64,000 nucleotides of DNA. Source: Trypanosoma brucei. Taxonomy: Eukaryota. The DNA lies in assembly GCA_000002445.1 (NCBI GenBank), contig CM000208.1, positions 1,920,001 to 1,984,000 of the forward strand, given 5' to 3'. The position numbers were made by a program, and so were the translations under genes. Within the stretch, counting starts at the first letter, position 1, and every line of letters begins with the position of its first letter. Positions 13,466 through 34,925 of the stretch are shown piece after piece. Under the pieces are notes generated by a model. That model saw only the letters and a program-made list of their open reading frames with translations, was not told the origin of the DNA and did not search any database.

Positions 13466-13744
13466 GTAGGTGTGGATAAGCCTCAGGTCAATTGCACGGG
13501 GCTACAGGGCGCCTCGTGAACTTCTCGCTCTCAGGGGCAGAAATATGCAAAGAAAGCGAAAGCAAACAAACAAACTCTAACCCCTAGGCGAAAACAGCTA
13601 AGCAGAAATAAGAGCAACTGTACTGTCTATTAGCGTTAGCTTGAAAGAGCTTCTAGAACTGTAAGAAAGCAAAGGAAAGAAGCGAAAGGAAGTAACCTCA
13701 CACATGTTTGCTCAGCACCGCAGTATATTTCGCCTTTTTCTTTT

Positions 13745-14091
13745 CAGACACTCAAGAACCCATTGATACAACAGATCGTACACATCGACAGTTCAGTGAA
13801 ACCGCCTCCATGTTTCCCCCGCCATTTCTCAAAAAGATGTGCAGGTGACAATATTCTCACGGGGTGGGGTGAACAGCTGTGACTACGTGCTATCACGACC
13901 AAAAAGGGGAAAAACAAGGGGGGCGGGATGAGAGGAACAAACAAAGAGTAAGTGGAGAACATGGACAGTTAAAAGTCCTTTTCCCTTTCCTCCACCCAAA
14001 CACGCGAGGTAAGGAAGATGTTTCCGATGCGGCTACAGCAGACAAACCCACTGACCTCAGCCCCACAGCGCAATGTTACCCTGGCTTGAAT
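13745..14091. repeat. Dispersed repeat copy A (~347 bp), intergenic between the PCI-domain gene and UFD1
   Basis: Direct-orientation duplicate of 34579-34925. By eye the identity is 99%+ (one c/g mismatch found) with sharp boundaries (cagacact...ggcttgaat). On the transcribed minus strand it contains a long pyrimidine tract followed by AG dinucleotides. Confidence 0.85.
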
Positions 14092-14308
14092 TTTCCCCTT
14101 TAGTAGATGACACCAATTCACAAATACGCGGGCCCTGGGGGACTGTTTTCTCACCTCATTGTCCTGCTGAGCCCAATCCGTTCGGCACTGAGGTATAAAG
14201 AAAATCTTGAAGCAAGAGGACTACCGGTAGACAAACGAAGGACATCATTCGATATATGTTCAAACGGTCTGTTAGTGGTCTCCAAGTAGACGGACGCTAT
14301 CGTTGGCA

Positions 14309-15472
14309 TCACAATAGGGGACTTTCACATAGCTCTGGGTAACGACCAGTGATAAGATCCACGGCATGCGACAGCTCCTTAGAGATGATGCTGATCCTCC
14401 CATCCCAGTCCTCTAACACTGAGGTGCGCTTCAGCCGGTTAAATATCACTACCTCGTCCACTTGGTCAAGCCTGGCGTCCAGTCTATGTTCCGAAACCAT
14501 CCGAGACACGAGTCGTTCTACATCGGCAGGGGTAATGCCGATAACAACTCCAAGCCGCTCAAAAGTAGCATTGCAGTACATCTGAGAAACTACCTCGAGA
14601 TTGTGCTGCGCGAAAGCTTCTTTGGCCGCGGCAACGTCATCGTCAGACGACAGCCCTGCCAATTGAAGAAAACACTGCAGTTCGGAGGGCCGCAACAGAT
14701 GCAACTGGGCTGCCCGGTTGAGTATGGCCTGCAAATCACCGAGAAGCAACGCGTTTTCGTCCTTCTGATAAACGCGGAGCCGCCGTGTACGTACTGGACT
14801 AGCATCTGATTGTATGACGGACACAACCGCAAGTTGAAGATGTGTGGCATCTTTGGTCCGTTCATACAGCTCAGCGAAACGCAATGAGGCATCAGTAAAA
14901 CGATGCCATGCCATCAAGACCGTGCCGAGGTAATACAAAAATCCATTTACGGCGGTAGCCGCAGTAGGATCCTCCGAAAGGGCCTTGTAGAGTGAGATTC
15001 CACGCGGGTACTCTGCCTCCGCCACTGCATAATCGCGTGTACGAAGCGCGCTGCTGAGGATTTTTGTCACGATTTCGAGCGATACTACATCATCCTTTGC
15101 TGGGAGCATGGAGCACCATGTCTGTTGCGCTAGACGTTCGTTGCCTGCAAGCACGCACCACTCGGCAACGGCCTCGCGCATCGCAAAAATTGTGGGGCTT
15201 GCTCCAGTACTACAGCGACTGTGTGCACCTAACAACACAATTCCCGCTTCGAGGGCAAAGGGAGCGCAATGTGGCGACGTAATTACCATTTCCTTCAAAA
15301 TATTGAAGGAGCGAGCAGCGACCACCGCCCAAATGTCGGCTCTCGCAGCTCCTTCAAGATGCTGCTGAACGAAAATCCTCCACCCGTCCAGATCCCCGGT
15401 TGCAACAAGGGAAACGGCTTGTGATTCGGCCCATCCGAGACTACCGACCTCATTTCCCCCCTCCTTTATCAT
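14309..15472 (-). CDS. PCI-domain protein (26S proteasome lid Rpn / COP9 signalosome CSN-type subunit)
   Basis: The C-terminal PCI/winged-helix region (..ATFERLGVVIGITPADVERLVSRMVSEHRLDARLDQVDEVVIF..) resembles Rpn5/Rpn6/CSN4. The ORF track extends to an ATG at 15649, but residues 1-59 translate a pyrimidine tract (SFFSFFIPL). The likely start is therefore the internal ATG at 15472 (MIKEGGNEVG..). Confidence 0.6.
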   Translation of the reverse strand: MIKEGGNEVGSLGWAESQAVSLVATGDLDGWRIFVQQHLEGAARADIWAVVAARSFNILKEMVITSPHCAPFALEAGIVLLGAHSRCSTGASPTIFAMREAVAEWCVLAGNERLAQQTWCSMLPAKDDVVSLEIVTKILSSALRTRDYAVAEAEYPRGISLYKALSEDPTAATAVNGFLYYLGTVLMAWHRFTDASLRFAELYERTKDATHLQLAVVSVIQSDASPVRTRRLRVYQKDENALLLGDLQAILNRAAQLHLLRPSELQCFLQLAGLSSDDDVAAAKEAFAQHNLEVVSQMYCNATFERLGVVIGITPADVERLVSRMVSEHRLDARLDQVDEVVIFNRLKRTSVLEDWDGRISIISKELSHAVDLITGRYPELCESPLL

Positions 15473-15788
15473 GGCCCTTTGGCCACAGGTGTGTATTGTT
15501 ATACCGCCGAGGGGAATAAAAAACGAAAAAAAAGAAGGAGCACATAAGCTCAGCGTGCATACAACTTCAAGAAATAATACACCTAACCTCCATGAAGGAC
15601 AGTGGTGTGGCCTCTCAAGTGTATCCTCGAACGCGTGTACATCCCTCATGCCCGTAATGTGCTTTATATGTTATATCCCGGCCACCGTTCCTTTTTTGTT
15701 GTTAAAGGGTTGGTTCGGAAACAAAGGAAATTAGTTTATTAACAGCGATTAAATGTCCAGCAGTTGGGTCGAGGTGGATGACCAACCA

Positions 15789-17927
15789 CTACTCCCTTTT
15801 TGCTTTCTTACTCGGTCTGCCTAGAAAATACTCAACTGCCCCGTCATCCCTTGCTTCATTTCGCTCATGCTGCCGCCTCCCCTGCCGAGCGTTCACGACA
15901 GTGGCGGCCAAACCAACGACGTCAGGATTATGTCTTCGGTCTTTTTGAGCAACGTCAAGATGGAAACGTGGATCACTAAGCAACTTACTTTGGAAGCGGG
16001 TGTCGATCGCCTCTGCTGCCGCATCCGAAGCCAGGCGTTGCCGCGCTTCGCGGGTGACACCAAGGTTATTAGAGGCACGCATCTTCTTCTTTTCCGCGCG
16101 TTCGGCAGCCAAGCGTTGCTTCACTGCGCGAGCGTGCTGTTTTCGCTTTTCCTTGCCGCTCAGGTGTATTGCGCCCTCGTCATCAGTGCCGAGAGCGGCC
16201 CGTAGGACCTGCCTCCTTTCTTCACGCTCCGCATGCTGCTTTGCCGTCTCGGCCTCCCGCTCTTGCATGATCATTTCTTTCTTTTTCTTTTTCATTTCGC
16301 TGCGCCGTAGCTTGTACTTGAGCTCGGCTTTACTTCCGAGGTCAGAAGAAGTCATTTGTTGCTTTATGCGCACGTCGCGCTGCAGTTTCACGGCCTTGGA
16401 CTCTGCATCAAGATCAAGTGTTGCCTCAACCTCACCAAAAACTTCAGGCGACCCTTCACACGACCCCTCAGATTTCTCCATTTCAACGTCACTGAAGCGA
16501 TTTAACGAGTCGTCATCACTCTCGTCACTATTTTCTTCGTCAGCTTCGCCGTCCTCACCACTTCCCCCATAATCCTCCGGTAGTCCCCCTATTTCTTCCA
16601 GAAGCGCGGCATACTTTTTGCGAATTCGAACCTTGTCCTTGGCGCGCTTCATTTTTTTGCCGTTCACACGACTGTTTTCCACATTATCGTCCACTTCATC
16701 TTCCTCAGAGGAATCAGGTGGGGCGATATACGCTGCCAGGTCATCATCTGCCGTCTCACCCGTAAAGCTGTCGCGCAGTGAGCGGTGCCGGAACACATCC
16801 TCCTGATCCCAAGATATTCTGAAGCGTGTTTGCGACAGCGCCGCCGCCTTAAATGCCGCAAGCGGTTGATAGTTTGCAGGAATGCGGTCGGCCTTATTCA
16901 CAGGGTTCTCAAAGACTTCACTATCGTCTACGTAACGCAGGTCGAGCACAACGCCGCTTGCCTCGATATCCATGCCATCTAGCTGGTTGTACACGGCCTC
17001 TGCTGTCTCAGGCGAGTCAAAAGTGGCAACTGCGTAGTAGTACTTCATACGGTCTCTCTCGTACTTGCGATGCTTTCCCTCCGAAAACAGTTCCCCATCT
17101 TCGCCTTCTTCTTGCAACATTGCGATGTTGTCATCTTCCCACGGGTCATCATCCATTGTATGCTCTTTTTCTATATTACCTTCTTCAGCCTCATTATCAC
17201 CAACACCGTAGTCCATTCCACTTTCCTTTCCCTTATTCTTTCTATCCTTTTTTTTGCTTCCCTCCTTGATCGGTTTGTCGGCGTCGGCGGGTGGCTTCAC
17301 ACTCACCTCATCCCTCTTTTCCCACAAGTCGGGTCCGTGCATCCGCTCATATTCAAGCATTCGCTTACCAAAGTCACTCATGTACACGGCGACATTCAAA
17401 AGCTGCCCACCAAGTGGCAGCGCGTAGAAGAGGACTGCGTACAGGTCTACTGACCTTATATGATCCCAACTACAGTTCACAATCGCTAGGCGGTGTTTCG
17501 GCTCGACGTATTCGACATCTGAAGGTGACCATGCCCTAACTTCACCATCAAGCTGCTCCGCTTCATCATCCGAGAGGTCCATCCCTCCACCGTTATCGGA
17601 TTTTAGGCTACTAGCTATATCTGAGAGCGCTTCAGCTCCCTCTTCGCCATCCTCCATGTCACTGTATTCGTCACTTTCCTCATCCTCTTCTTCTTTCTCC
17701 GAGTCCCCTTCTCCACCTTGAATCTGACGCAAGTGTTTTGCAAAGCGGGGGTCCTGCCTGGCTGCATCTTGCACTGTACCTCTTCCTCTACCACTGCGGT
17801 GCCCTCCGCGCGTGAGTTGAAAGCGGGGGTCCGTAAAGCGTGAGGCAAACCTTGCGTCACCACCTCGGCCCCGTCCTCGCCCTCTGTGGAGGCCGCGCCC
17901 CCGGGAGGAGCTTTGTAGTGTCTTCAT
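15789..17927 (-). CDS. ESF1: Pre-rRNA processing protein ESF1 homologue (NUC153 / DPRF motifs, acidic tracts)
   Basis: 712-aa ORF with ATG start. Repeated DPRF motifs (TDPRFQ, QDPRFAK, SDPRFHL), LAIVNCSWDHIRSVDLYAVLF matching the ESF1 RRM-like core, and long Asp/Glu/Ser-rich runs. Confidence 0.65.
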   Translation of the reverse strand: MKTLQSSSRGRGLHRGRGRGRGGDARFASRFTDPRFQLTRGGHRSGRGRGTVQDAARQDPRFAKHLRQIQGGEGDSEKEEEDEESDEYSDMEDGEEGAEALSDIASSLKSDNGGGMDLSDDEAEQLDGEVRAWSPSDVEYVEPKHRLAIVNCSWDHIRSVDLYAVLFYALPLGGQLLNVAVYMSDFGKRMLEYERMHGPDLWEKRDEVSVKPPADADKPIKEGSKKKDRKNKGKESGMDYGVGDNEAEEGNIEKEHTMDDDPWEDDNIAMLQEEGEDGELFSEGKHRKYERDRMKYYYAVATFDSPETAEAVYNQLDGMDIEASGVVLDLRYVDDSEVFENPVNKADRIPANYQPLAAFKAAALSQTRFRISWDQEDVFRHRSLRDSFTGETADDDLAAYIAPPDSSEEDEVDDNVENSRVNGKKMKRAKDKVRIRKKYAALLEEIGGLPEDYGGSGEDGEADEENSDESDDDSLNRFSDVEMEKSEGSCEGSPEVFGEVEATLDLDAESKAVKLQRDVRIKQQMTSSDLGSKAELKYKLRRSEMKKKKKEMIMQEREAETAKQHAEREERRQVLRAALGTDDEGAIHLSGKEKRKQHARAVKQRLAAERAEKKKMRASNNLGVTREARQRLASDAAAEAIDTRFQSKLLSDPRFHLDVAQKDRRHNPDVVGLAATVVNARQGRRQHERNEARDDGAVEYFLGRPSKKAKRE

Positions 17928-18301
17928 AGCAAGTGGAAGACCTTGTGGTTAAGTATGTACACTATAAATCAGTAATATCAATAGCAATGGCATCAGAAGC
18001 GAAATATACAAAACATTTACATGCGTGAGGGCATGATGCGCGAAGGGAAAACGCAGTGGCAGCAGTGAGTTAAGATACAGTAACCTCAGTATGGCGGTGT
18101 TTGTGGATTCCCGCCCGTAACAAAGTGCAAGAAAATTCCCCGTCTTTTGTCGCTGAGCTGAGCAGGGGTGAATGTCGATTGGGGAAGGTGCGAGGTGCGC
18201 AGCACAACTTGAAGTAAAGGCGGTGCCGAAAAGGTGCAAATAAGCAAGCGAAAAGCACGAACAACAAAGGGGGATGATGATAGTGTTACGTTAACCGAGT
18301 T

Positions 18302-18724
18302 TTACTCTTTCTCCTTCCGAGAAAATGACGGTATGATCGCAACAAGATTGAGGAAAAGTACGAGTGAAACCAGACCCAGGGGAATTGTCCATATGTGAAA
18401 CACTGGCCACACGGCTACGGCCCAAAGGAATCCCCCAGCGCACCATGCGCCCGCGGCAGTGTGCAGTAGTCCCTTATGCGTTTCACTCCAATTAGGGTGC
18501 TTCGGCTTCACGACTAGACCCGTGTAAAACCAGAGAGCGACAAAAATGGCGAACGATGCGTACGAGAGTAGCATGACGGGTTGTATGATTTTACGGGAGC
18601 GTAGCATAACTTCAGCTAACTTTGCCATTTTCAACACATAAACACAAACCGCAATAGTACACAACTTCGTGATATAAAATGCAGCATTCCGCGGTGGTGG
18701 TGGTTTCGTGTTGGTTAGCCTCAT
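18302..18724 (-). CDS. Small multi-pass membrane protein (hypothetical)
   Basis: 140-aa ORF with three to four strongly hydrophobic segments. An alternative start MAKLAEV lies at residue 33. There is no strong pyrimidine tract immediately upstream, so this is a lower-confidence gene. Confidence 0.35.
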   Translation of the reverse strand: MRLTNTKPPPPRNAAFYITKLCTIAVCVYVLKMAKLAEVMLRSRKIIQPVMLLSYASFAIFVALWFYTGLVVKPKHPNWSETHKGLLHTAAGAWCAGGFLWAVAVWPVFHIWTIPLGLVSLVLFLNLVAIIPSFSRKEKE

Positions 18725-19148
18725 CAGGTTCTATTGTTGTCGAGCCGTTTATTTTTTACTTTTCTTCCTTTCTCCTTTTTTGTTAAAAATTTGAAAGAAG
18801 GGAAAGAGGCTGAAAGTGAAAGCCTTGCATTATCCACCTTTTCGGGGGACAGATGCCTGTGTACAAATGTATGGTCTCTCTTTCCTTTTTTTTTTTGGCT
18901 GGTATGTGCAGCAAAGGATTACATTTTTTTTTTTAAAGTACAACTCCATGAAACAATACCATAAAAGGAAGAATAGGAAAATCAAGGTTTCCTAATTTTG
19001 AAGAGGTAAAGCAGACGAGGGGGAGGAGGAGGGCTGAGAACACAACTGCTTGGGTACATAAAACACTAGAAACAACCAGACACATGGGTCCGCCCTGTGC
19101 ATTTAACCGTACACTCGGTTCCAAAAGAGACGTCGGTTCCGTTCACGT

Positions 19149-20675
19149 TCAAACCTCCTTTTCTGTAATGAAGATTGACGGATCGCCCTTAAGTGCGCGT
19201 AGCTTTTGCGCAGCCGCAATCTCGATTGAATTGAGTTGCTCGGGTTTGATTACAGATCTCGCGTCGTAGAGAGACGGTAGAGCCCCGGTGGAGGGTGAGG
19301 CACACCGTGAGCTGTGTAGACCGTTACTCTCGGATTGAGTGTTCGACGTTTGTTCTAGTGAAGAAGACATACATTGCTGTTTCTTCGGTAAGTCAGTGCG
19401 GAGTGCATTTTCCTCCAACTTATTTATCTTATTTTCCATCTCCGTGATGGTGCCTAAAAGTGCAACCCAGTTTTGCTCCATGGTTGTGGCGTAATGCTGC
19501 AGGTCCTTGACGGAATAAATCTCGGCTCGTCTCTCTGGTCGCCTCGTCATGAGATTTCGAAGCGCCTTCACTTCCTCCCGAATGTCATCCTCAGGCTTAC
19601 GCTCGTTGACGCCGCGGTATATCAATATGGGCGGTGGTGCGAAGTCATCAACAACTTTTTGCGTGCTTCGCATATCCAGTGTGCCCTGATAAGCCGAGGC
19701 ACTAATCAATAATGACGGATCATAAATGCGGTTTGCCCACTCCCCTCCCATTACCTCGTAGTGCGAGGAAACAATAATGGAGAGCGTTGCTGCCGTCTGT
19801 ACTGCCATCTCTTCATTTCGTTGGGTAAAGGGACAAGGAATGACAGGGGTGCCAAGCAAATGCAACACGCCTAAAACCGAGCGCTGTACCTCGCCGTAAC
19901 GCGTGAAGACGGGCACAAGGAGCTGTGCGGCGTTGGATGTTTCGATTAAATCGACAAGCGGAGAGTTTTCCGAGGCTCTAGGATCAAACGCACCCGGCCG
20001 CGGCTTCAGATTCAGCGCAATCCCGGCTTCACTCACTGCACATGGTATGGAGGTCTCACCAACACGATAGGGAGCTGAGTTTCGAAGTCTAGACACGTCA
20101 CGGCCAACTACAAAAGGAGCAACAAGCTCGGCGGATACGGCGCCAGGCGGAGGTATCCACAGTAGTGCGACGGCAGCACGTGTGCGGATTGCCACACTCT
20201 CCAAAACGCAATATATGCTCGCTGACACAAGCTCAAGAGCGGAGTTCATCTTTCGTATCTTATGGCTGGGGACAGTTCCATTAAAAGTGGCCCTCGGTGA
20301 GCACCCACCATATGAATGGCGTGGGATGGTTGGTGTTGTCATTTGCGTAGCCGGTGAGTGTATGTGATTTTCTTGTTTGATATTGGGAAATGACGTGACC
20401 AACTCCCCTTGTTCCTGCAGGTTCCGTCGCTTTGCGGCCTCTTGACCCCCCTTATCTTGCTTTAGAGCCCCAAACTCCTGGTGAATTGCGGAGCACAACT
20501 CACGTAGGGCTCCTCTAAGCTGAAGGACTTGATGAGTCCCTTCAGCCGTTTCCACCTTCATCTCGTTAACGATATTGTGTATTTCGTCGAGACGGTGTGA
20601 AATAATATCACTAAAGGAACATTGACCTAATGAGGAAGGTGGAAATGCGTGTCGACAACTATAACAAAGCTGCAT
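19149..20675 (-). CDS. GAF-like domain protein with C-terminal coiled coil (hypothetical)
   Basis: 508-aa ORF with ATG start. The central segment GETSIPCAVSEAGIALNLKPRPGAFDPRASENSPLVDLIETSNAAQLLVPVF..VLGVLHLLG follows the GAF ligand-binding consensus (G..G...LN....DPRF...S.L.VP.....V.GVL.L). No PDE catalytic or cyclase motifs are present. Confidence 0.5.
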   Translation of the reverse strand: MQLCYSCRHAFPPSSLGQCSFSDIISHRLDEIHNIVNEMKVETAEGTHQVLQLRGALRELCSAIHQEFGALKQDKGGQEAAKRRNLQEQGELVTSFPNIKQENHIHSPATQMTTPTIPRHSYGGCSPRATFNGTVPSHKIRKMNSALELVSASIYCVLESVAIRTRAAVALLWIPPPGAVSAELVAPFVVGRDVSRLRNSAPYRVGETSIPCAVSEAGIALNLKPRPGAFDPRASENSPLVDLIETSNAAQLLVPVFTRYGEVQRSVLGVLHLLGTPVIPCPFTQRNEEMAVQTAATLSIIVSSHYEVMGGEWANRIYDPSLLISASAYQGTLDMRSTQKVVDDFAPPPILIYRGVNERKPEDDIREEVKALRNLMTRRPERRAEIYSVKDLQHYATTMEQNWVALLGTITEMENKINKLEENALRTDLPKKQQCMSSSLEQTSNTQSESNGLHSSRCASPSTGALPSLYDARSVIKPEQLNSIEIAAAQKLRALKGDPSIFITEKEV

Positions 20676-20897
20676 TCCTTCACTTCTTTTTTCTTTTTTT
20701 TAAAAAAACAACAACAGCATACAAATGAAGAAAGGAAAGAAAAATGCGCAAATGACAAGTCGAGGGCATAAAGGAATTGCAACCAACGCTGGGAATATAG
20801 ATAACGGTAACCCACCGGCACCTTCGGAAACTATTCCGCCCAATGGGAATAAACTCTCCGCTTCTCCGGTTGTCGTGCTAAGAAAATGACAATACTT

Positions 20898-26736: not shown

Positions 26737-27265
26737 ACCGCACTTCTATTTACAACTCCTCAACCCTACTATTAATTGTATTCCTCACTAAACCCTTCCC
26801 TTTCAATTACTAGTGCTCTACACGTCCTTGGCGTGCACCACCGCGCTCTTTTACACGTGCTACACACGAAACGTGTTAACATGCGTAATAAAAACATGTG
26901 ATGGAAGAAGATAGTGTGCATACACGAAGTCAAAAAAAAAAAAAGGGTCAATAGCAAAAACACAGTGGAAAACTACTCTCATGTTGCCCACATCCCTAAT
27001 GACAGCCAGGGTATGTGTCGTCTGAGAGCAATGGAGGCCTGTTTAACATTTATATACACAAGAATTTTGTACATTCTAAACATCCGTAACGTCACCCCGC
27101 TTACCCACCTTGAACACACAGAGTGTGTGCGTGTGTGGGAACAGCGAAATTATTGCTGGTGTGATGACAGACTTCAAATCTGCGGTTTAACTTCCTCCCC
27201 TCTCCACGGACAAACACAAAAATACACAACCACATTTCACTAGGCATGGCACTGTCCAGTTAACC

Positions 27266-29221
27266 TCAGGTATGGGCACGGGTTTCCAACAACAGCTTTG
27301 GTGGCATGTTCAACTGGAAGTTGGCGCCTCGCTGGACGTACTGACCAAGAAGATCACACAGCTCTGCGTTGTGCGCGCGAAGGCTATCCGTTTGTTCAAT
27401 CAAGGCTTTGCGCTGCTTTAACTGTTTAAGGTAACGGTCAAGTCCCTTCTCAAGAAATCCCCAAACCCGTCGGTGATCCACTGGCACGGAGTCGCCCATA
27501 CGTGTCCAATACTCCTTCTCCGCTATGCGCTGCCGTTCCCCTTGCTTTGCCTTCTCTGTCTGCGTGTTTTTCTTGTCAGATTGTTTCTGGCTCTCTAATT
27601 TTTGTGCTTGTTTCTGCGTTCGGGAATTGAGGAACGCCTGGAGCGCACTAACAGCGTCCTGTGGACTGATGAGGGTTGCTTCTCCGTCCTCATCGTCGAC
27701 AATGAAGAACTGTAACATATCTTCCATTTCCTCAGTCGTGCGTATTTGCAGTGTGGAGAGAATGGCCTCAATGTTAGCCCGCTCTTCAGTTATCCCATTA
27801 ACCATTTCAATCGCCTCTAATACATTGTTGTCCGCAATAAACGGTGCCTGTTGTTTCAGGATCCCGAGCAGCATAACGGCTTCCTCGGACAGTTCAATTT
27901 CTTCGTCACTACTAACGGCGTCTTCTTCCTCCACAACATTCGTCAACTGATCTTCGTGCCAGTAGTTCAACTCCGGGGGTTTCCACGGCATGCCGAGAAT
28001 ATCTTCAAATATAACACGATCTGCCTGAAGGCATTTCTGCACCAACTGAGTGTTTTTCTCCTCATGCATTCGCCACAACCGACGGTACTTCTCCCTATCC
28101 GCTTTTTCAAATAACTGAAATTTTCTCTGTAGGTCACGGTACTGTCCTGCAACACGATGCAGCTGGGCAGTGAGGTCCTTGTTAGCGCGTTGGTATCGCT
28201 TCTCAGACTCTGCGTAGCGGGAAACGAGGGAGCTCAACGTGTCCTGCAACCGCGCCAACTTTCTCTTGTTCAGAGTCTGTGTGTTTTTGTTTTCCTTTAT
28301 GCGCTCGCGAAGTACCTGTAGGTTATAGCTCAACCGCTCCCCATTGAGGAGAAACTCCGCCTTACACCGCTCAAGTTCCTCCATTAGGGAATGAATCTCC
28401 TTCAAATGCTCCCGCTTAATCTCGTTGTACTCCTCTCGACTGTCGCAGTGCTTGTCATCCATCTTCTTCTGCGCCTCTAAAATCTTTGCTTCCCTCTTCT
28501 TACGGTACTCCGTCTCGCGTGTGCGGCGTACCTTCATGAGTTGCTGAATCTCCTCATTATATTTTGCGATACGGCCCTGCCGTTCCTGCTCGTACGTGCT
28601 CTCCACTTCCCGAAGCTTGCGCGTGTAGCTGTCTAGATACTTTTCCGTCTGATTGCGCATCTCCTCGATAAGACTTCTTACATCCTCTGCGTTCCGTCGC
28701 AACGCCACTACGAACTCTTCCTCCCGTTCTTCTAACTGTAACCGGAGGGCCTCGATGAGACGATCCTTTACTGCAATCACCTCTTCGCAGCTCTTCTGTT
28801 GGTCGTCGAGGGCGCGCTGCATGTCGTGGGGGACGTCCAGTTTATAAATAGACTCGAACCTTAATTGAATTGCACCGCTCCGGGCTTCGTTTTCCTCCGC
28901 ATCTTCCTCCCGCTTCTTCCGGCGCTCTATCAGTGCAACTTCTTCACGGCTCCGACGATCACTTTCATTTGCACATGCAGCGACATCCCAGTTGGTTAAC
29001 GCGCTGTGCGCTTTATTATAAACCTCCGCCATCTCTTCACGTACCTCTTGAATGCGTTGCCCTCCCAAATCTTTTGGTGCATCATCCTCTTCCACTGTTA
29101 TAGTGTTTTGTATCTCGTCGCCATCTCCGTTCATGCAGCGCATCATCTTTAAGACGCGCTGTCGGCGTGCGGCGATGCGCTGCTCCTGCGACTCATCGGC
29201 TTTGTCGCCTCCCGTCTCCAT
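27266..29221 (-). CDS. Large coiled-coil protein (possible axonemal / dynein-regulatory-complex-type protein)
   Basis: 651-aa ORF with ATG start. Heptad-rich over ~400 aa, with a globular C-terminal third. The flagellar assignment is speculative. Confidence 0.55.
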   Translation of the reverse strand: METGGDKADESQEQRIAARRQRVLKMMRCMNGDGDEIQNTITVEEDDAPKDLGGQRIQEVREEMAEVYNKAHSALTNWDVAACANESDRRSREEVALIERRKKREEDAEENEARSGAIQLRFESIYKLDVPHDMQRALDDQQKSCEEVIAVKDRLIEALRLQLEEREEEFVVALRRNAEDVRSLIEEMRNQTEKYLDSYTRKLREVESTYEQERQGRIAKYNEEIQQLMKVRRTRETEYRKKREAKILEAQKKMDDKHCDSREEYNEIKREHLKEIHSLMEELERCKAEFLLNGERLSYNLQVLRERIKENKNTQTLNKRKLARLQDTLSSLVSRYAESEKRYQRANKDLTAQLHRVAGQYRDLQRKFQLFEKADREKYRRLWRMHEEKNTQLVQKCLQADRVIFEDILGMPWKPPELNYWHEDQLTNVVEEEDAVSSDEEIELSEEAVMLLGILKQQAPFIADNNVLEAIEMVNGITEERANIEAILSTLQIRTTEEMEDMLQFFIVDDEDGEATLISPQDAVSALQAFLNSRTQKQAQKLESQKQSDKKNTQTEKAKQGERQRIAEKEYWTRMGDSVPVDHRRVWGFLEKGLDRYLKQLKQRKALIEQTDSLRAHNAELCDLLGQYVQRGANFQLNMPPKLLLETRAHT

Positions 29222-29776
29222 CTTCTGTCCCTCTGCCCGTGTGAGGAAAAGATGTATGACGGTAAATATAAAACCTGGCTAAAAAAAAAAAGGAAGAACG
29301 AAAGCAGGGGGGAGGGAAGGAGCAAAAGAGTTAAGCGAATTAATTAATTAAGTAATGCTAGAGGAGTGCGAACAAATGTACGTAACGTGACGCCACGCAA
29401 CGGCAGCTTCAAAAGCGTAACAAATGCTCATGATAGCAAGAGTCATATCAGACATACCACCACCAACAGGCTCAAAAACAGAGAAACAAAACAAAAACAG
29501 AAAAAAAAAGAGTAAAAGAAATGGACATAGCGGAACCACGGAAGATTCATTTGGGAGATAGGAAAAATGAACAAAAAAAAATGAAAGAACTATCCAAATT
29601 CGTGAACATCCTCGGGAAGTTCATCAGATAGTCGGAGACCTCTTTCCCCTCTTTTTCATTCCCTCTTTTCCCGTTTTCTCCCCCATCTCTTGGATCTCTA
29701 GAGTGCGTTGCCTGAGTTCGCTACACTCAGCTTCCTCCCACACTCATCCCCTCTCTATGTAACACGGTATGGTCAA

Positions 29777-29802
29777 ATATATATATATATATATATATAT
29801 AT
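29777..29802. repeat. (AT)13 microsatellite
   Basis: Perfect dinucleotide run read in sequence. Coordinates within a base or two. Confidence 0.8.
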
Positions 29803-30162
29803 TAACAGCACGCACTCCCACAACTTAACTTAACTTTCCTCCCGCCACCAAACCACAGCGCCCCCACCCTTTCATTTTCTTTTTTCCCCTTATTCTCCAC
29901 TTTTCTTTTCTTTTCTTTCCTCCTTCTTTCTTCTGTTTCTTCATTTAACAAAACTTCATTCGCTCACCCGCTCATCTTTTCTTTCATTTTTTCTTTCCTT
30001 CCTTTTTCCTCTGACTACGAGACCAAATTCAAATTTTAGCATATGGAATAAAAGGCAACAGTAAGCTGGATGATGGAAAAAAAAAGCAAAACAAAGCAAC
30101 GTGGAGGCGGATTCTTGTTCAGTTCTTCAGGCGATGAAGCGACAGACACAATTAAAAAAACA

Positions 30163-30180
30163 CAACAACAACAACAACAA
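30163..30180. repeat. (CAA)6 microsatellite
   Basis: Read in sequence (cacaacaacaacaacaacaa). Confidence 0.75.
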
Positions 30181-31105
30181 TAACCAAAAGAACAAAAAAA
30201 GAACAAAAAAAAAAGACTTATTTCCTCCTTGCCTATTTATTGGACTCCTTCTTTTTGTGTGTTCTTACACATGCAACATCTCACCCACGTACGCATGTAT
30301 ATAATAAGAATATGGTTGGAACTGTATAGGTAATGTTGGCGGCTTCAAATTACCTTTTGCTCTCAGCCATTAAAAAATTGGTTTTGAAATTTTGACACCA
30401 CATGAACAAATAAACAAACAAACAGACAACAAACAAATAAATAAATGGAAGACAAAAACAGAAGTGGCACTCTATTACACACGGCCGAAGAGAGAAAAAA
30501 AGGTAGAGGATACTACCTCACGACGTACGAACAAACAAAAACACACATTTACACCCGCACTTGCGCAACAGTTTATATGTGGTTTTGCATGTGCACAATT
30601 TGCATGCATTCTTCTCGCATGCATTCCTTTCGTACGATTGCTTCCCACACAACACTGCAGCAGTCCATGCCGTAGCTCTAAACTCCGAATCGCAACATCT
30701 TCCCTGTACATTTCCCTTCCCTTCCTTCTGAGCTCTTTGTCTCTCTTTTTTTTTTCCCTACCCTTTCCTTCGCTTGCCTTCATACGCATTTTCCCCCTTC
30801 ATTCATTTACGCACGTCACCGGTTCCTGTTTCTTTTGCGTTCACGCTTCCGTTCCTGCTTTTTTTCCTTTTTTGCACTCCACAGACGGTAAGTTGGAGGG
30901 TGAAGGAAAATGTACGACTGCTAAGGACACATAATGAAGGAATGAGCTGTGCGATGCGGGATGAAAAGGAAAGACGAGATGGAGTATTTCTATATGTTTC
31001 ATTTTGTATGTGATGCCTGTTTGTAACACAAGCGTTTGTTTTTTTTTCCATTTTTCCATTCTTCCCTTATTTTCATGCGCTCACCTCTCGCGTTATTGTT
31101 GTCGC

Positions 31106-31128
31106 TCCTCTCTCTCTCTCTCTCTCTT
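31106..31128. repeat. (CT)n microsatellite (~10 units)
   Basis: Read in sequence (ctcctctctctctctctctctct). Confidence 0.75.
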
Positions 31129-31781
31129 CATTTAACTACAGCACGTTCGCAAAGCACTAAATAACAACTAGCGCGGTAGCTGCAGAAATATCGTCGCTGG
31201 CGGCAAGGACTAAAGTGAGTGCAAGAAAGAATACAAAAACAAAGAAAAAAACTGTGCAAGCGAAAGAGAAAGAAGACTTCTCAAGCGCTTGTCTTCCAGT
31301 CAAAGGGAAAATGCTGCCTAACACCTCGCGGAGATGTCCACGACGGTGCCTCAATTCAATGTCTCGAAGTAGTTAATCAAGATGAAGCGGTAGAGGACCT
31401 ATCAGTGTGAAAAATTGCCGTTTTCAGCTTCCATTCATCCTTCCTCATAGTTTTCTTCAGCACTTCTTCCCCCTTTTTATCTTCTCCTCGACATGTATAC
31501 GCATACGCAGCGCTATGATAAGTAAATTGATGGCTTTATTTCTTCGCGGGGGATTTTTTTTTACTTGTCTTACCTGTGACTTGCCCCATCGCGCGTCTGC
31601 TTCCCATCCATTCAAGGAGACCTTATCCCCCTCTGGAACAAAATATTGTAGGAAATAAACCGTGTCGGTGGGCCAACCAGTGCAGTCTCCCTTCTCCACA
31701 GCCTATCATGAGCTCTTTTCTTCACTTTCCACCTCAAATTTCTGTTTTGGCTCACTTGTATTTTTTGTACGTGTGCGTACG

Positions 31782-31785
31782 TATA

Positions 31786-31820
<35 letters not shown>
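31782..31820. repeat. (TA)n microsatellite (~19 units, one G interruption) followed by (TG)n
   Basis: Read in sequence at 31781-31830. Confidence 0.8.
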
Positions 31821-31824
<4 letters not shown>

Positions 31825-31961
31825 GTGTATGGGAATATATGAATATATTTATATGCATTATGAGCTTCTCTCCTTGAAGCTGCCGGCAGTTTCCCATTCA
31901 ACTGGCAGCTACTGCCGGTGCTGGATGGACCAAATATCCGAACAAACTCCCCTTTCCTTTT

Positions 31962-34151
31962 CTATATGGCCACATTCAGGTACCCATTGGGCATAGTAAA
32001 AAGATCAGTGACTGGAGGCGACACGCTGCTCACCACTGAGCCGCCATCACTGCTTCGAAGCGCAATATCAGGTGACGGCGAGAGACCGTCGACATCATTG
32101 CCATCTGTATCTTCTCCAGGCGTGCAATCCGCGAAGAGACTTTTGCAGCCAACACTGCTGCTCTCCTGCGAGAGGTACTGCGAGATGGCGGCATTCGGGT
32201 AGCGTCGCTGCATTTCCTTAACAACTGGGAGGTACGCCTGAGCTGCCACTGCAAGGGCCGCATCCGCGTAGCCCACCAGGCTTTGCCTCAATAATGCGTG
32301 GTAGAGAGTAACGATAACTTCTGGTGGCACCGCGATCTTTAACGAGAGGCGACCCACCGTATTTGCAACGGCGAACTCACCACACCTGAGCCAGAAGAGC
32401 ATCAAATGTGTGATGCCCTCGTTGATCATTAGCTGAATGGCCGAGGTGGGACCAACAGTGGGTGACCGGCTGGTTTGAGTGACATGCTCATTCGGACAGT
32501 ACCTACAGTAACAGTGGAAATGCGCCCTCTGAGGCGTCATTGATGGAACACTGCCCGCAGGAAGGTGTGTCTGGCTGCAATATTCGCAGAGCAGCACTTG
32601 ACGACCAGCGATTTTGTATGCGTGCATCGTCTGGTATGGGGCCGTATTTGGGTGGAGAACCGCAGAACATAGAGAGGGAGACTCTGTTTCTTCATTACCA
32701 ACGTCGCACGAATGATGATTCGGTCGGGGCTCGTTGTACGCAAGCTCCGTAAAACAGTCGAAGGCAGCATTCGCTACTAAAGTGTTCAGTGCCTTGGTTG
32801 CGAGTTTTATGAGAGGCGCAATAACCAGCGGGGCAATTTGTGATATATTCCCAGGTGATTCGTGGGCGACAGCAGCAATTACTCTGAACACCGCCAGCTG
32901 GCTCTCCGCGCACGATGCCCGTGCAGCCAACGACACCGCTACCTCGACAACATCAAGGTCATGCACCCGCTTTTGCAGTGTGGCATCTTTCTCTAAGGCG
33001 CTGGTCGTGACCTGACATAGGAGCCGCTCCAGGCATTCAGAGTTGGGAATGAATGAAACGGCAACACGGAATGGCAAAATATCACTGCGCCCATAGGTGA
33101 ACACCGGGACGTGCAGCAGCAACCAACCAGCTGTTTCCACTATTCCTTGGCAGCAGGAGAGCAGCCGGAGTTGTTCCTCACCGAAGTCCCTCTGATGCAA
33201 CGCAACGGACGGGTCTCTCATGGAGGACTTCCCCATATCTATATGGTGCCTTCTTCCGTTGTCTAACACTGGCACAAGTTCGACTATAACACGGGCAGTT
33301 TCCACCACCAGCGGACCCAATTCACTCGGCAGAGCAATAGCCTGCGACAGGGCTAGGTCACGCGCCACAGTGAGTGACTTCCCTAGTAGTTCGACGTAGA
33401 GCGAAAGTATTGTAGTTTTTACCATCGGATCATAGTTTTCCAGCCACTGATTGAGCTCGTCCAGGACGTAATGGAAGACGTAGTGGATAAACCCCAGCGA
33501 GGCGCGGACAAATGCCACGCGGCCTTCTGATGAAACGTTTCCCCAATCCGAGCAGTACTGGATCAGGGGGTAGTATATAAGGGACGCCATCACAAGACCG
33601 TAGGGAGACCGCTGTTCCATCAGCCGAAAGCTCTCATCTATGCAGTCGAGGAGATCCCGGAGAGACATTCGATCGCTTGGGCTACAGTCCCCTCCCACAA
33701 GATGGGCACCGGCGAGCTCTTCAATCAGCTGCTGCGATGGCACCACCCGCACAACATGAGCGGCATTCGTCCACCCGCCATTTCCGAGCCTGTAATACGT
33801 TTCGGTAGGATCAATGCTTCCCCTTGCACTGGCAACGGCAACCATGAGACGGGCGGGGTACAAGGGACACAATACATGTGCGTTATTCCGTGGTCGGGTT
33901 CTCAGACAAACATCCATGTTGTCGTACGCGAGTATGGGGCTGCGTATGACCACCTGCGGTGTATCGAAAAGTTGCTCATCTATTTCCTGGCACTTCCGGC
34001 ACAGAGTGTAGCGGCATCCCTCCTGCGCACAGTGATACCACTCTGTCATGGATGGGTGAGCCGAGGCTTTGCAGATAGAGCACAGCAGACCCGCTACCGG
34101 GTTCGGGAATGCCTGCATGGGATGTTCCGGGTGGGAACCATGACGCAACAT
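31962..34151 (-). CDS. Hypothetical protein with Cys-rich zinc-finger-like N-terminal motif
   Basis: The track ORF (827 aa, to 34445) begins at a non-ATG codon. The first in-frame ATG at 34151 gives MLRHGSHPEHP.., 729 aa, and sits just downstream of a pyrimidine tract. Cys cluster CSICKASAHPSMTEWYHCAQEGCRYTLCRKCQ, and a second Cys/His cluster near the C-terminus. Confidence 0.5.
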   Translation of the reverse strand: MLRHGSHPEHPMQAFPNPVAGLLCSICKASAHPSMTEWYHCAQEGCRYTLCRKCQEIDEQLFDTPQVVIRSPILAYDNMDVCLRTRPRNNAHVLCPLYPARLMVAVASARGSIDPTETYYRLGNGGWTNAAHVVRVVPSQQLIEELAGAHLVGGDCSPSDRMSLRDLLDCIDESFRLMEQRSPYGLVMASLIYYPLIQYCSDWGNVSSEGRVAFVRASLGFIHYVFHYVLDELNQWLENYDPMVKTTILSLYVELLGKSLTVARDLALSQAIALPSELGPLVVETARVIVELVPVLDNGRRHHIDMGKSSMRDPSVALHQRDFGEEQLRLLSCCQGIVETAGWLLLHVPVFTYGRSDILPFRVAVSFIPNSECLERLLCQVTTSALEKDATLQKRVHDLDVVEVAVSLAARASCAESQLAVFRVIAAVAHESPGNISQIAPLVIAPLIKLATKALNTLVANAAFDCFTELAYNEPRPNHHSCDVGNEETESPSLCSAVLHPNTAPYQTMHAYKIAGRQVLLCEYCSQTHLPAGSVPSMTPQRAHFHCYCRYCPNEHVTQTSRSPTVGPTSAIQLMINEGITHLMLFWLRCGEFAVANTVGRLSLKIAVPPEVIVTLYHALLRQSLVGYADAALAVAAQAYLPVVKEMQRRYPNAAISQYLSQESSSVGCKSLFADCTPGEDTDGNDVDGLSPSPDIALRSSDGGSVVSSVSPPVTDLFTMPNGYLNVAI

Positions 34152-34578
34152 CGTTATATGTTCTGCTCTTTTTTGATCTATCGCAGCTACACGACTTAAA
34201 TTCCCTTGCTTGCAATAATGTGAGCACGGGAAGAACAAAGGGGATGTAAAAAGAATGGAGAAAGGTGAAACCTCCGCATCGTATTCACCCACTCCCGTTA
34301 TTTCGCCCCAGGGACTTCTTTCCTTTGAATTGTCTACAACATCGACAATTCCATCTTCTCCAGAAACGTAGGGAAACCAAAATAAAGTTTCCACGAGAGA
34401 AACGATTTCGCGTATCCTCGTAGTCCCGCACCCGCACCGATACAAGTGTGCAAGGGGGACTGTCGCAGCGCAACAAAGGGAAGGGTTAAAAAAAGGGGCG
34501 ACAAATTAACGGCAGTTTCCAGTGGCCAGAAGCTGCGCCGTCAAATAATCGTAGGCACAGCGTACAAAAATATATGTG

Positions 34579-34925
34579 CAGACACTGAAGAACCCATTGA
34601 TACAACAGATCGTACACATCGACAGTTCAGTGAAACCGCCTCCATGTTTCCCCCGCCATTTCTCAAAAAGATGTGCAGGTGACAATATTCTCACGGGGTG
34701 GGGTGAACAGCTGTGACTACGTGCTATCACGACCAAAAAGGGGAAAAACAAGGGGGGCGGGATGAGAGGAACAAACAAAGAGTAAGTGGAGAACATGGAC
34801 AGTTAAAAGTCCTTTTCCCTTTCCTCCACCCAAACACGCGAGGTAAGGAAGATGTTTCCGATGCGGCTACAGCAGACAAACCCACTGACCTCAGCCCCAC
34901 AGCGCAATGTTACCCTGGCTTGAAT
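34579..34925. repeat. Dispersed repeat copy B (~347 bp), intergenic between the polytopic membrane-protein gene and the 729-aa Cys-rich protein gene
   Basis: Same sequence as 13745-14091 and in the same orientation. The offset between copies is a constant 20,834 bp. Flanking sequences are unrelated. Confidence 0.85.

What the first reader, a model, noticed from the sequence alone, without database searches (positions are those of the whole stretch)
13745..34925. Near-identical ~347-bp direct repeat present twice, 20.8 kb apart, in intergenic regions of the same transcription unit
Copies at 13745-14091 and 34579-34925 are in the same orientation and I found a single mismatch. Both have sharp boundaries and completely unrelated flanks. 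Each lies a few hundred nt upstream of a minus-strand start codon (UFD1; the 729-aa Cys-rich protein). On the transcribed strand each carries a long pyrimidine tract plus AG, i.e. a candidate trans-splice acceptor and 5'UTR module. Possible explanations: a duplicated RNA-processing or regulatory module; a small structured ncRNA gene in two copies (a weak C/D-like GUGAUAG...CUGA pair is present on the transcribed strand); a short non-autonomous retroposon relic (no target-site duplication seen); or an assembly artefact. Direct repeats of this identity flanking 10 genes could also mediate deletion or circular amplification of the intervening ~20.8 kb. This is the least expected structure in the window.
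Basis: seen in the sequence. Interest (0 to 1): 0.6.

Follow-up and report, generated by a model that had tools for sequence, protein, structure and literature searches.

The report
Duplicated 347-bp 3'UTR segment, Trypanosoma brucei
Two almost identical 347-base stretches of non-coding DNA lie 20.8 kb apart between genes on Trypanosoma brucei chromosome 10; they are a real, old-enough-to-be-shared small duplication of untranslated sequence that shows no sign of being a gene or a known mobile element, so it is a curiosity and not a new kind of system.

Summary
Copies at 13745-14091 and 34579-34925 share orientation, differ at one base and have sharp edges. They form the only repeat family of 40 nt or more in the window. 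The window is T. brucei TREU927 chromosome 10 (window coordinate + 1,920,000). The repeat is not an assembly artefact: both copies sit at the same two sites in T. b. gambiense and in a second chromosome-level assembly, and T. equiperdum short-read contigs stop 32 nt inside it at both loci.

It has no Rfam match, no tRNA, no excess RNA structure, no C box and no protein homolog in any frame. It lacks the 5' signature of ingi/RIME/SIDER retroposons. It varies between subspecies as much as its flanks do.

Published mapping puts the 3'-most poly(A) site of the upstream COP9 mRNA at 13793. That is inside copy A and downstream of the proposed acceptor AG. Each downstream gene also has its own pyrimidine tract and AG outside the repeat.

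Best reading: a passive copy of one intergenic or 3'UTR segment into another, probably B to A, made before the T. brucei subspecies split and touched since by gene conversion. Genome-wide copy number could not be tested.

The parts
13745..14091 (-). Copy A of the 347-bp repeat. It lies between the COP9/PCI gene (Tb927.10.7800) and UFD1.
   Evidence: present at the orthologous site in L004 9375-9721 and L003 9375-9721
34579..34925 (-). Copy B of the 347-bp repeat. It lies between the 385-aa hypothetical gene and the 729-aa Cys-rich gene.
   Evidence: present at the orthologous site in L012 1835-2181 and L011 1849-2195
13753..13753 (.). The only A/B difference in this genome (C here, G at 34587). 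It is paralog-specific in all genomes examined: position 339 of the unit on the transcribed strand, 9 nt from the 3' edge.
   Evidence: the T. equiperdum OVI contig end also carries the A-type base
13901..13959 (-). 59-nt pyrimidine tract inside copy A. The first AG downstream is at 13891-13890. The identical tract in copy B is at 34735-34793, with its AG at 34725-34724.
34735..34793 (-). 59-nt pyrimidine tract inside copy B, with its AG at 34725-34724.
13793..13793 (-). Published 3'-most polyadenylation site of the COP9 mRNA (chr10 v4 position 1,933,793). It is inside copy A, 48 nt before the copy's 3' edge and 98 nt upstream of the next pyrimidine tract.
   Evidence: Kolev et al. 2010 (PMC2936537) Table S1. 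Multi-mapping reads were placed pseudo-randomly, so the site could belong to either copy.
13663..13695 (-). Second pyrimidine tract (33 nt) outside copy A, with its AG at 13660-13659. It is the likely main trans-splice signal of UFD1 and the likely director of the 13793 poly(A) site.
   Evidence: for the sequence; the functional role is inferred from the coupling of trans-splicing and polyadenylation stated in PMC2936537
34488..34505 (-). Pyrimidine tract outside copy B, with its AG at 34461-34460. It is the likely trans-splice signal of the 729-aa gene.
   Evidence: the role is inferred
14092..14101 (-). AAAGGGGAAA immediately 5' of copy A. This is the upstream half of a possible target-site duplication.
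13728..13744 (-). AAAAGAA (13744-13738) followed by AAAGGCGAAA (13737-13728), immediately 3' of copy A. These may be a short A-tail plus the downstream half of a target-site duplication (9/10 match).
   Evidence: The empirical chance is 0.0012 at random positions, and about 0.04 if the insertion fell in a purine tract.
14309..15649 (-). COP9 signalosome/PCI-domain gene (Tb10.6k15.2770 = Tb927.10.7800). Its 3'UTR contains copy A.
12545..13465 (-). UFD1 gene downstream of copy A.
35249..36406 (-). 385-aa kinetoplastid-specific hypothetical gene upstream of copy B.
31962..34151 (-). 729-aa gene downstream of copy B.

Best explanation
The repeat is a passive, low-copy duplication of non-coding sequence. 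It is neither a gene nor a member of a known mobile-element family.

A 347-bp piece of one inter-gene region was copied into another inter-gene region 20.8 kb away in the same transcription unit. The source was most likely locus B, downstream of the 385-aa gene. The target was upstream of UFD1, within what is now the distal 3'UTR of the COP9 subunit mRNA. The copying happened in an ancestor of the present T. brucei subspecies.

The most likely mechanism is DNA-templated repair of a chromosome break using the nearby locus as template. This would be ectopic gene conversion with microhomology-type junctions, a pathway demonstrated experimentally in T. brucei. A reverse-transcribed mRNA 3' end is the second choice.

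Since then the two copies have drifted at the same rate as their flanks. They have exchanged sequence at least once by gene conversion, which together with their youth explains the 99.7% identity.

Because the copied piece carries a strong pyrimidine tract and AG, it brings a potential cryptic or alternative trans-splice and poly(A) signal into both 3'UTRs. The published map nevertheless shows mRNA reading through it to a poly(A) site set by the next, non-repeated pyrimidine tract.

Shown here: the repeat is real, it is conserved in position across subspecies, it has no RNA-gene or retroposon hallmarks, and its rate is neutral-like. Inferred: the direction B to A, the copying mechanism, and the gene conversion.
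For: Real and shared across genomes: both copies sit at both orthologous sites in T. b. gambiense DAL972 and in GCA_003543875.1. T. equiperdum OVI contigs end 32 nt inside the repeat at both loci.

Older than the subspecies split: position 339 is G in every A copy and C in every B copy.

No selective constraint detectable: there are 8 variable columns in 694 nt of repeat against 15 in 1,246 nt of flanking inter-gene DNA across three genomes.

Gene conversion: position 68 is G in both copies of the window genome and C in both copies of the other two genomes.

Not a gene: there is no Rfam family and no tRNA. Whole-unit folding z-scores are +0.36 and +0.86, and the lowest sliding-window z is -2.2. 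All six reading frames have no homolog among 5.8 billion proteins. Kolev et al. list no novel transcript there.

Lies in a 3'UTR: the 3'-most poly(A) site of COP9 is at 13793.

Nearby template: same chromosome, same strand, 20.8 kb apart, as expected for local templated repair. Ectopic gene conversion that uses microhomology at an end of the duplicated tract has been demonstrated in T. brucei (PMC3045614). A 3-nt AAA microhomology is present at the 5' junction in two of the three genomes.

B as source: only copy A has junction features (A-rich run and flanking direct repeat); copy B has none. In T. melophagium a mitochondrial-carrier gene lies between the orthologs of the genes that flank copy B, and it is absent in T. 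brucei. This would explain an orphan splice signal at locus B.
Against: Genome-wide copy number in T. brucei could not be measured with these tools, so 'two copies' is only what the window and the fetched loci show.

The imperfect 10-nt direct repeat and A-rich run at copy A fit RNA-mediated insertion better than DNA-templated repair.

The 59-nt pyrimidine tract is the longest in both inter-gene regions. It may well be used, so 'passive' could understate a processing role.

The poly(A) datum comes from reads placed pseudo-randomly between the two copies, and from procyclic forms only.

The equal-rate comparison rests on very few substitutions. The gene-conversion inference rests on one site and could be affected by cross-copy polishing in the assemblies.

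No outgroup close enough to align was available, because there is no T. congolense DNA in the collections. The direction and age of the copying are therefore not proven.
Confidence: 0.55

Rival explanations
1. Copy A is a retrocopy. The 3'-terminal ~347 nt of a polyadenylated transcript from locus B (the 3'UTR of the 385-aa gene's mRNA) was reverse-transcribed, 5'-truncated, by a retroposon enzyme such as that of ingi. It was then inserted upstream of UFD1, leaving a short A-tail and a target-site duplication.
For: On the transcribed strand copy A is followed by AAAAGAA. It is also flanked by AAAGGGGAAA and AAAGGCGAAA, a 9/10 match (9/12 over 12 nt). The chance of this is 0.0012 at random window positions. 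Copy B has neither feature.

The 3' edge of copy B lies 74 nt upstream of the next pyrimidine tract (34505) and 118 nt upstream of its AG (34461-34460). That is the zone where poly(A) sites fall (for comparison, 98 nt for the mapped site at locus A).

Bringaud et al. accept 12-bp motifs above 65% identity as vestigial target-site duplications (PMC3820030).
Against: The pseudo-duplication arises in about 4% of cases if an insertion lands in a purine-rich tract. The ingi4 target-site signature is matched at only 5 of 10 positions, which is background.

No poly(A) site was reported at repeat positions 300-347; the 3'-most mapped site is position 299.

A single retrocopy landing within 21 kb of its source, and in the same orientation, is improbable: roughly 0.2% of a ~26-Mb core genome (my estimate).
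Confidence: 0.2
2. The unit belongs to an unrecognised dispersed repeat family, for example a short non-autonomous element, with further copies elsewhere in the T. brucei genome. The two copies in this window are simply two members.
For: The boundaries are sharp and the flanks unrelated. Short-read contigs break at the unit. Copy number outside the window could not be tested. T. brucei is known to hold small families of short retroposons: 10 TbSIDER1 and 12 TbSIDER2 (PMC3820030).
Against: The ingi-clade 77-nt 5' signature is absent; the alignment score equals the shuffle mean. The unit is 347 bp, against about 500 bp for RIME and about 570 bp for SIDER. Identity is 99.7%, against a median 16% divergence for TbSIDER1.

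No degenerate copies exist in 64 kb or in about 200 kb of fetched loci other than the orthologous sites. No ORF called over any copy appears in the 5.8-billion-protein collection. No literature match to the sequence was found.
Confidence: 0.12
3. The unit is a functional cis-acting RNA module kept similar by selection. It could be an alternative trans-splice acceptor with a leader for the downstream genes, or a shared 3'UTR element that co-regulates the COP9 subunit and the 385-aa protein.
For: It has a 59-nt pyrimidine tract with an AG 10 nt downstream, the longest such tract in both inter-gene regions. It is conserved in position and sequence in all four T. brucei-group genomes. Both copies occupy the same relative place: they end 50 nt (copy A) and 74 nt (copy B) upstream of the next pyrimidine tract.
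Against: It varies among subspecies as much as the flanking DNA does. COP9 mRNA reads through to 13793. COP9 is not in the Kolev list of genes with alternative processing sites in their UTRs. COP9 mRNA has been used as an ordinary housekeeping control (PMC9757043).

No similar sequence exists in the T. vivax A locus or the T. melophagium B locus. The small ORFs differ between copies because the one variant removes a stop codon.
Confidence: 0.1
4. The unit encodes a small structured RNA, such as a C/D or H/ACA-like snoRNA embedded in a 3'UTR, present in two gene copies.
For: snoRNAs embedded in 3'UTRs do occur in T. brucei (legend of Kolev Figure S7). A GUGAUAG...CUGA pair is present.
Against: No Rfam family matches even at E <= 10; the only hits are two bacterial sRNA models far below threshold. 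GUGAUAG lacks the second GA of the C box. There is no thermodynamic signal on either strand. No novel transcript is listed at either site.
Confidence: 0.03

Closest known systems
Ectopic gene conversion / one-sided microhomology-mediated repair in T. brucei (Glover, Jun & Horn 2011, PMC3045614)
   Same: It produces a duplicated tract at a second locus with little or no homology at a junction. It operates in T. brucei, and nearby templates on the same chromosome are plausible donors. Later exchange between copies matches the co-varying site found here.
   Different: The published events were induced by an engineered break and used real homology at one end. Here neither junction shows more than 3 nt of shared sequence, and the event is only inferred from the present-day sequence.
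[quoted passage not shown] 2007, 2011; PMC2323293, PMC3820030)
   Same: They are short and non-coding, lie in inter-gene DNA of African trypanosomes, and exist in low copy number. They can be flanked by a decayed target-site duplication and an A-run, as copy A may be.
   Different: The unit lacks the 76-79-bp 5' signature that defines the clade. It is 347 bp, not ~500 or ~570 bp. It has no clear 12-bp duplication and no ingi4 or ingi6 target pattern. The copies are 99.7% identical, whereas TbSIDER1 is ~16% diverged.
Leishmania SIDER elements in 3'UTRs, and repeat-mediated gene amplification in Leishmania (Ubeda et al. 2014, cited from my own knowledge)
   Same: These are repeated non-coding units located in 3'UTRs. 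Direct repeats flanking gene blocks can recombine to give circles or deletions.
   Different: Leishmania has about 2,000 copies with demonstrated regulatory and amplification roles. Here only two copies are seen, there is no evidence of regulation or amplification, and African trypanosomes are reported not to have expanded such elements (PMC3820030).
Processed retrocopies of cellular mRNAs made by LINE enzymes (mammalian L1-type processed pseudogenes, own knowledge)
   Same: Such copies are 5'-truncated copies of a transcript 3' end, with an A-run and a flanking direct repeat at the derived copy only.
   Different: The tail here is only 7 nt and the duplication is imperfect and purine-rich. 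The copy lies 20.8 kb from its source. No retrocopy of a cellular mRNA is known to me in trypanosomes.

Membership tests
ingi-clade retroposons (RIME, TbSIDER1/2, DIRE) | Conserved 76-79-bp signature at the 5' end (Pr77) | tested here: not met
   Local alignment of the L1Tc Pr77 sequence (from PMC1874656) to both copies with 300-nt flanks, on both strands, scores 9-10. Shuffles give a mean of 10.4-10.7. Only the T. cruzi version of the signature was available.
ingi-clade retroposons (RIME, TbSIDER1/2, DIRE) | Poly(dA) stretch at the 3' end | tested here: inconclusive
   Copy A is followed by AAAAGAA and then AAAGGCGAAA. Copy B is followed by CACATATATTT.
ingi-clade retroposons (RIME, TbSIDER1/2, DIRE) | 12-bp target-site duplication | tested here: inconclusive
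   Copy A matches 9/12 (9/10 over the best 10 nt) within a purine-rich context. The chance is 0.0012 in general and about 0.04 in purine tracts. Copy B matches 5/10, which is background.
ingi-clade retroposons (RIME, TbSIDER1/2, DIRE) | Conserved endonuclease target pattern upstream (ingi4 or ingi6 signature, PMC3820030) | tested here: not met
   The ingi4 pattern matches 5 of 10 positions in register; 8.8% of window positions do as well. The ingi6 pattern matches 3 of 6.
ingi-clade retroposons (RIME, TbSIDER1/2, DIRE) | Unit length about 500 bp (RIME) or about 570 bp (SIDER), in a family of diverged copies | tested here: not met
   The unit is 347 bp and only two copies are seen, 99.7% identical. 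TbSIDER1 has a median 16% divergence. Genome-wide copy number was not testable.
C/D box snoRNA | C box RUGAUGA near the 5' end, D box CUGA near the 3' end, and a match to a curated family | tested here: not met
   Only GUGAUAG is present, which differs from the C box at two positions, including the GA. No Rfam hit appears at gathering score or at E <= 10. Complementarity to rRNA was not testable.
Structured non-coding RNA in general | Folding energy lower than shuffled sequence, or covariation | tested here: not met
   Whole-unit z-scores are +0.36 (transcribed strand) and +0.86. The lowest sliding-window z is -2.2 among 68 windows. Covariation is not testable because the copies are nearly identical.
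tRNA-derived SINE | tRNA-like head | tested here: not met
   ARAGORN finds no tRNA in the window.
Trans-splice acceptor / 5'UTR module | Pyrimidine tract followed by AG on the transcribed strand | tested here: met
   A 59-nt tract (88% pyrimidine) is followed by an AG 10 nt downstream in both copies.
Trans-splice acceptor / 5'UTR module | Spliced leader actually added at that AG, with the upstream mRNA polyadenylated before it | tested here: inconclusive
   The 3'-most poly(A) site of COP9 (13793) is downstream of the AG (13890), so read-through mRNA exists. COP9 is not listed among genes with alternative UTR processing. The tables of all splice sites were truncated in the held copy, and reads in the repeat were placed pseudo-randomly.
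Processed retrocopy of an mRNA 3' end | 3' edge of the source copy coincides with a poly(A) site, and the derived copy has an A-tail and a target-site duplication | tested here: inconclusive
   Copy A has a short A-run and a 9/10 flanking repeat. No poly(A) site is reported at the unit's last 48 nt. Poly(A) data for locus B were not available.
Recombination-competent direct repeats (deletion / circle formation) | Long, near-identical direct repeats flanking a gene block, with evidence of exchange | tested here: inconclusive
   The geometry is met: 347 bp, 1 mismatch, 10 genes between. One co-varying site suggests gene conversion. T. brucei recombination depends on substrate length and identity (PMC1904282). 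No deletion or amplification product could be looked for.

The most novel reading that the evidence does not exclude
Copy A could be a genuine retrocopy of the 3' end of a cellular mRNA, or of a processing intermediate bounded by two poly(A) sites. It would have been made by a trypanosome retroposon reverse transcriptase and inserted into a neighbouring 3'UTR. It would carry a working pyrimidine-tract/AG signal, so that it rewires RNA processing at a second locus. To my knowledge this would be the first processed retrocopy of a host transcript described in a trypanosomatid. It would also be an example of splice/poly(A) signals spreading by retroposition within a polycistronic unit.
Probability: 0.15. 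Interest if true: 0.55.

Novelty: new member of a known kind. Interest (0 to 1): 0.25.

Why it matters
On the best reading it matters little for biology. It is a small, apparently neutral duplication of untranslated sequence.

It has practical consequences. Short reads, spliced-leader tags and poly(A) tags from this unit cannot be assigned to one locus. The published UTR ends of Tb927.10.7800 and of the 385-aa gene upstream of copy B (which I infer by numbering to be Tb927.10.7900) are therefore ambiguous, and short-read assemblies break here.

The two copies are a competent substrate for homologous recombination across 10 genes. They also give a natural marker for gene conversion between dispersed sequences in the chromosome core.

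If the retrocopy or functional readings were true, the unit would bear on how RNA-processing signals arise and spread in polycistronic units.

Tried and rejected
- Rfam at gathering score over the whole window, and at E <= 10 over the unit: only two sub-threshold bacterial sRNA models.
- Whole-unit and sliding-window folding on both strands: no signal.
- ARAGORN and Tandem Repeats Finder: nothing relevant.
- Sensitive blastn for degenerate copies in the window and in all fetched loci: only the orthologous copies.
- Exact look-up of a 57-aa ORF inside the unit, to reach other genomic copies: not on record.
- Search of a concatenate of all six-frame ORF segments against 5.8 billion proteins, to find called ORFs over other copies or a coding origin: no hit.
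- Exact 33-nt pattern in JGI metagenome contigs: none.
- Remnant of the mitochondrial-carrier gene that T. melophagium has at locus B: tblastn negative.
- Pr77 signature and ingi4/ingi6 target patterns: not met.
- Supplements of Nilsson 2010, Siegel 2010 and Guegan 2022 for splice, poly(A) or lncRNA coordinates: not held, or without these genes.
- The Kolev tables of all splice and poly(A) sites are truncated in the held copy, so the data for UFD1, the 385-aa gene and the 729-aa gene were not recoverable.
- Literature search for 24-25-mers of the unit: none.
- T. congolense, the closest outgroup, has no DNA in the accessible collections.
Full report

Yes. Aligning the two stretches with 100-nt flanks gives unbroken identity from 13745 to 14091 against 34579 to 34925. 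That is 347 nt in the same orientation, with a single mismatch (13753 C, 34587 G). Similarity collapses immediately outside those limits. The repeat finder returns this as the only direct-repeat family of 40 nt or more in the window, with spacing 20,834 bp, and finds no inverted repeats. A sensitive blastn finds no further, degenerate copy in the 64 kb. All gene-like ORFs are on the minus strand, as expected for a kinetoplastid polycistronic unit.

**2. Where is this?**

The UFD1 protein at 12545-13465 is 100% identical to the T. brucei brucei TREU927 and T. equiperdum proteins. A row of Table S1 of Kolev et al. 2010 (PMC2936537) lists Tb10.6k15.2770, 'COP9 signalosome complex subunit, PCI domain protein', with its ORF at 1,935,649-1,934,309 on Tb927_10_v4. 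This is exactly the window ORF 15649-14309 plus 1,920,000. The window is therefore chromosome 10, 1,920,001-1,984,000.

Gene identifiers were cross-checked:
- COP9 is Tb927.10.7800 (PMC9757043).
- SAS6L is Tb927.10.7920, equal to Tb10.6k15.2630.
- The kinase next to UFD1 is Tb927.10.7780.
- UFD1 as Tb927.10.7790, the 385-aa gene as about 7900 and the 729-aa gene as about 7890 are my inferences from the numbering.

**3. Not an assembly artefact.**

Both copies are present, full length and 98.6-99.4% identical to copy A, at the orthologous sites of T. b. gambiense DAL972 and of a second chromosome-level T. brucei-group assembly, GCA_003543875.1. The gambiense copies are L004 9375-9721 and L012 1835-2181. 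The GCA_003543875.1 copies are L003 9375-9721 and L011 1849-2195. In the short-read T. equiperdum OVI assembly, one contig starts 32 nt inside copy A and another ends 32 nt inside copy B. This is the classic signature of a true repeat that is longer than the assembler's word size.

**4. Anatomy on the transcribed (minus) strand.**

Each copy begins 218 nt (A) or 324 nt (B) after the stop codon of the upstream gene. Each holds a 59-nt tract that is 88% pyrimidine, at 13959-13901 and 34793-34735. The first AG lies 10 nt downstream, at 13891-13890 and 34725-34724, followed by about 145 further nt.

Each locus has another pyrimidine tract and AG outside the repeat, between it and the downstream start codon:
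- Locus A: tract at 13695-13663, AG at 13660-13659.
- Locus B: tract at 34505-34488, AG at 34461-34460.

**5. What the published transcript map says.**

Kolev et al. give the 5'-most spliced-leader site and the 3'-most poly(A) site of each transcript (header). For COP9 the 3' end is 1,933,793, which is window 13793. That position is inside copy A. It is 97 nt downstream of the internal AG, 48 nt before the copy's 3' edge and 98 nt upstream of the second pyrimidine tract.

Trans-splicing and upstream polyadenylation are coupled (PMC2936537). The simplest reading is therefore that the second, non-repeated tract is the working signal of UFD1, and that at least one COP9 mRNA form carries about 300 nt of the repeat in its 3'UTR. 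COP9 is absent from their untruncated list of genes with alternative processing sites in UTRs. None of their novel transcripts overlaps either copy.

Caveats:
- Multi-mapping reads were placed pseudo-randomly, so a site inside the repeat could belong to either copy.
- The data are from procyclic forms.
- The full splice-site and poly(A) tables are truncated in the held copy.

**6. Is it a gene or a known element?**

Rfam gives nothing at gathering score over the window, and only two far-sub-threshold bacterial sRNA models at E <= 10 over the unit. The 'C-like' GUGAUAG differs from RUGAUGA at the second GA. The unit folds no better than shuffles: z is +0.36 on the transcribed strand and +0.86 on the other, and the lowest sliding-window z is -2.2 among 68 windows. 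ARAGORN finds no tRNA.

A concatenate of every ORF segment of 25 aa or more from all six frames has no homolog among 5.8 billion proteins. The small ORFs differ between the copies because the one variant removes a stop codon.

The known short retroposons of African trypanosomes are defined by four features: a 76-79-bp 5' signature, a 3' poly(dA), a 12-bp target-site duplication and a conserved upstream endonuclease pattern. T. brucei has 10 TbSIDER1 and 12 TbSIDER2 of about 570 bp, with a median 16% divergence (PMC3820030). The L1Tc Pr77 sequence (PMC1874656) aligns to the unit and its flanks no better than to shuffled sequence. The ingi4 pattern is matched at 5 of 10 positions and the ingi6 pattern at 3 of 6, which is background. 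I therefore do not file the unit under RIME, SIDER or DIRE.

**7. How does it evolve?**

Across the three full-length genomes, 8 of 694 repeat columns vary, against 15 of 1,246 columns in the rest of the two inter-gene regions. There is no sign of extra constraint.

Position 339 (transcribed-strand numbering) is G in all A copies and C in all B copies, including the T. equiperdum contig end. The duplication therefore predates the split of these lineages.

Position 68 is G in both copies of the window genome and C in both copies of the other two genomes. Parallel mutation is very unlikely, so this points to at least one gene-conversion event between the copies, barring cross-copy polishing in the assemblies.

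No similar sequence exists in the T. vivax COP9-UFD1 spacer (L017) or in the T. melophagium region downstream of the 385-aa ortholog (L018).

**8. Origin.**

Copy A, but not copy B, has junction features. On the transcribed strand it is preceded by AAAGGGGAAA and followed by AAAAGAA and then AAAGGCGAAA. A 9/10 match of this kind occurs at 0.12% of random window positions. It occurs at about 4% of positions inside all-purine tracts. This weakly suggests that A is the derived copy, and it is compatible with a retrocopy.

Against a retrocopy:
- The target signature is background.
- No poly(A) site is reported in the last 48 nt of the unit.
- The derived copy lies only 20.8 kb from its source in the same orientation, which is what local DNA-templated repair would give and what random retroposition would rarely give.

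Ectopic gene conversion using microhomology at an end of the duplicated tract has been shown in T. brucei (PMC3045614). In two of the three genomes the identity extends by AAA at the 5' junction.

T. melophagium has a mitochondrial-carrier gene between the orthologs of the two genes that flank copy B. T. brucei lacks that gene there, and tblastn finds no remnant. An orphan pyrimidine-tract/AG signal at locus B could be what is left of that gene's acceptor. This is speculation.

**9. Verdict.**

The repeat is real and is shared by the T. brucei group. The best-supported reading is a passive micro-duplication of inter-gene or 3'UTR sequence, probably B to A and probably DNA-templated. It was made shortly before, or has been homogenised since, the subspecies radiation, and it evolves like its flanks (confidence about 0.55). 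Rivals are a retrocopy of an mRNA 3' end (0.2), a member of an unseen dispersed family (0.12), a selected processing or regulatory module (0.1) and a small RNA gene (0.03).

The main gap is the genome-wide copy number, because no eukaryotic DNA collection could be scanned. I tried indirect routes through ORF look-ups and a protein search without result.

Interest is low to moderate. The practical points are ambiguous read mapping, ambiguous UTR ends for the flanking genes, and a 347-bp recombination substrate spanning 10 genes; T. brucei recombination depends on substrate length and identity (PMC1904282).

Noticed in passing
L018 11468-12538 (T. melophagium), compared with window 34152-35248: T. 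melophagium has a 356-aa mitochondrial-carrier gene (PF00153) between the orthologs of the 385-aa and 729-aa genes. T. brucei has only a 1.1-kb spacer there, the one that holds copy B, and tblastn finds no remnant. This is a lineage-specific gene loss or relocation exactly at locus B.
   Followed up: partly
window 14309-15649 (COP9/PCI gene, Tb927.10.7800): Kolev et al. map the 5'-most spliced-leader site at 15506, inside the 446-aa ORF, so the annotated start is probably wrong. The next in-frame Met would give 387 aa, while GCA_003543875.1 annotates 290 aa. The same table flags the SAS6L ORF (window 37966-38658): its splice site is at 38632.
   Followed up: partly
L001 position 1 and L002 position 11513 (T. 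equiperdum OVI contig ends; window 13776 and 34894): Two short-read contigs end exactly 32 nt inside the repeat at opposite loci. This is useful as independent evidence of a true repeat, and it shows that the unit fragments short-read assemblies.
   Followed up: yes
window 29222-31961: A 2.7-kb stretch without an ORF of 150 aa or more on the coding strand. It has the lowest GC in the window (0.41), strong negative GC skew and several simple repeats ((TA)n, (AT)n, A-rich 11- and 19-mers). It is probably an unusually long 3'UTR of the 729-aa gene.
   Followed up: no
window 3591-4075, 38700-39305, 47971-48449, 49951-50712, 58544-59171 (all minus strand): After the coordinate shift, five 'novel transcripts' of Kolet et al. 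2010 (Tb10.NT.84, 86, 87, 88, 89) fall in gaps between the annotated genes of this window. None touches the repeat.
   Followed up: no
window 34926 (base immediately 5' of copy B on the transcribed strand): This flank base is T in the window genome but A in T. b. gambiense and GCA_003543875.1. In those genomes the A/B identity therefore extends by 3 nt (AAA), giving 350 nt. This is a possible junction microhomology.
   Followed up: partly
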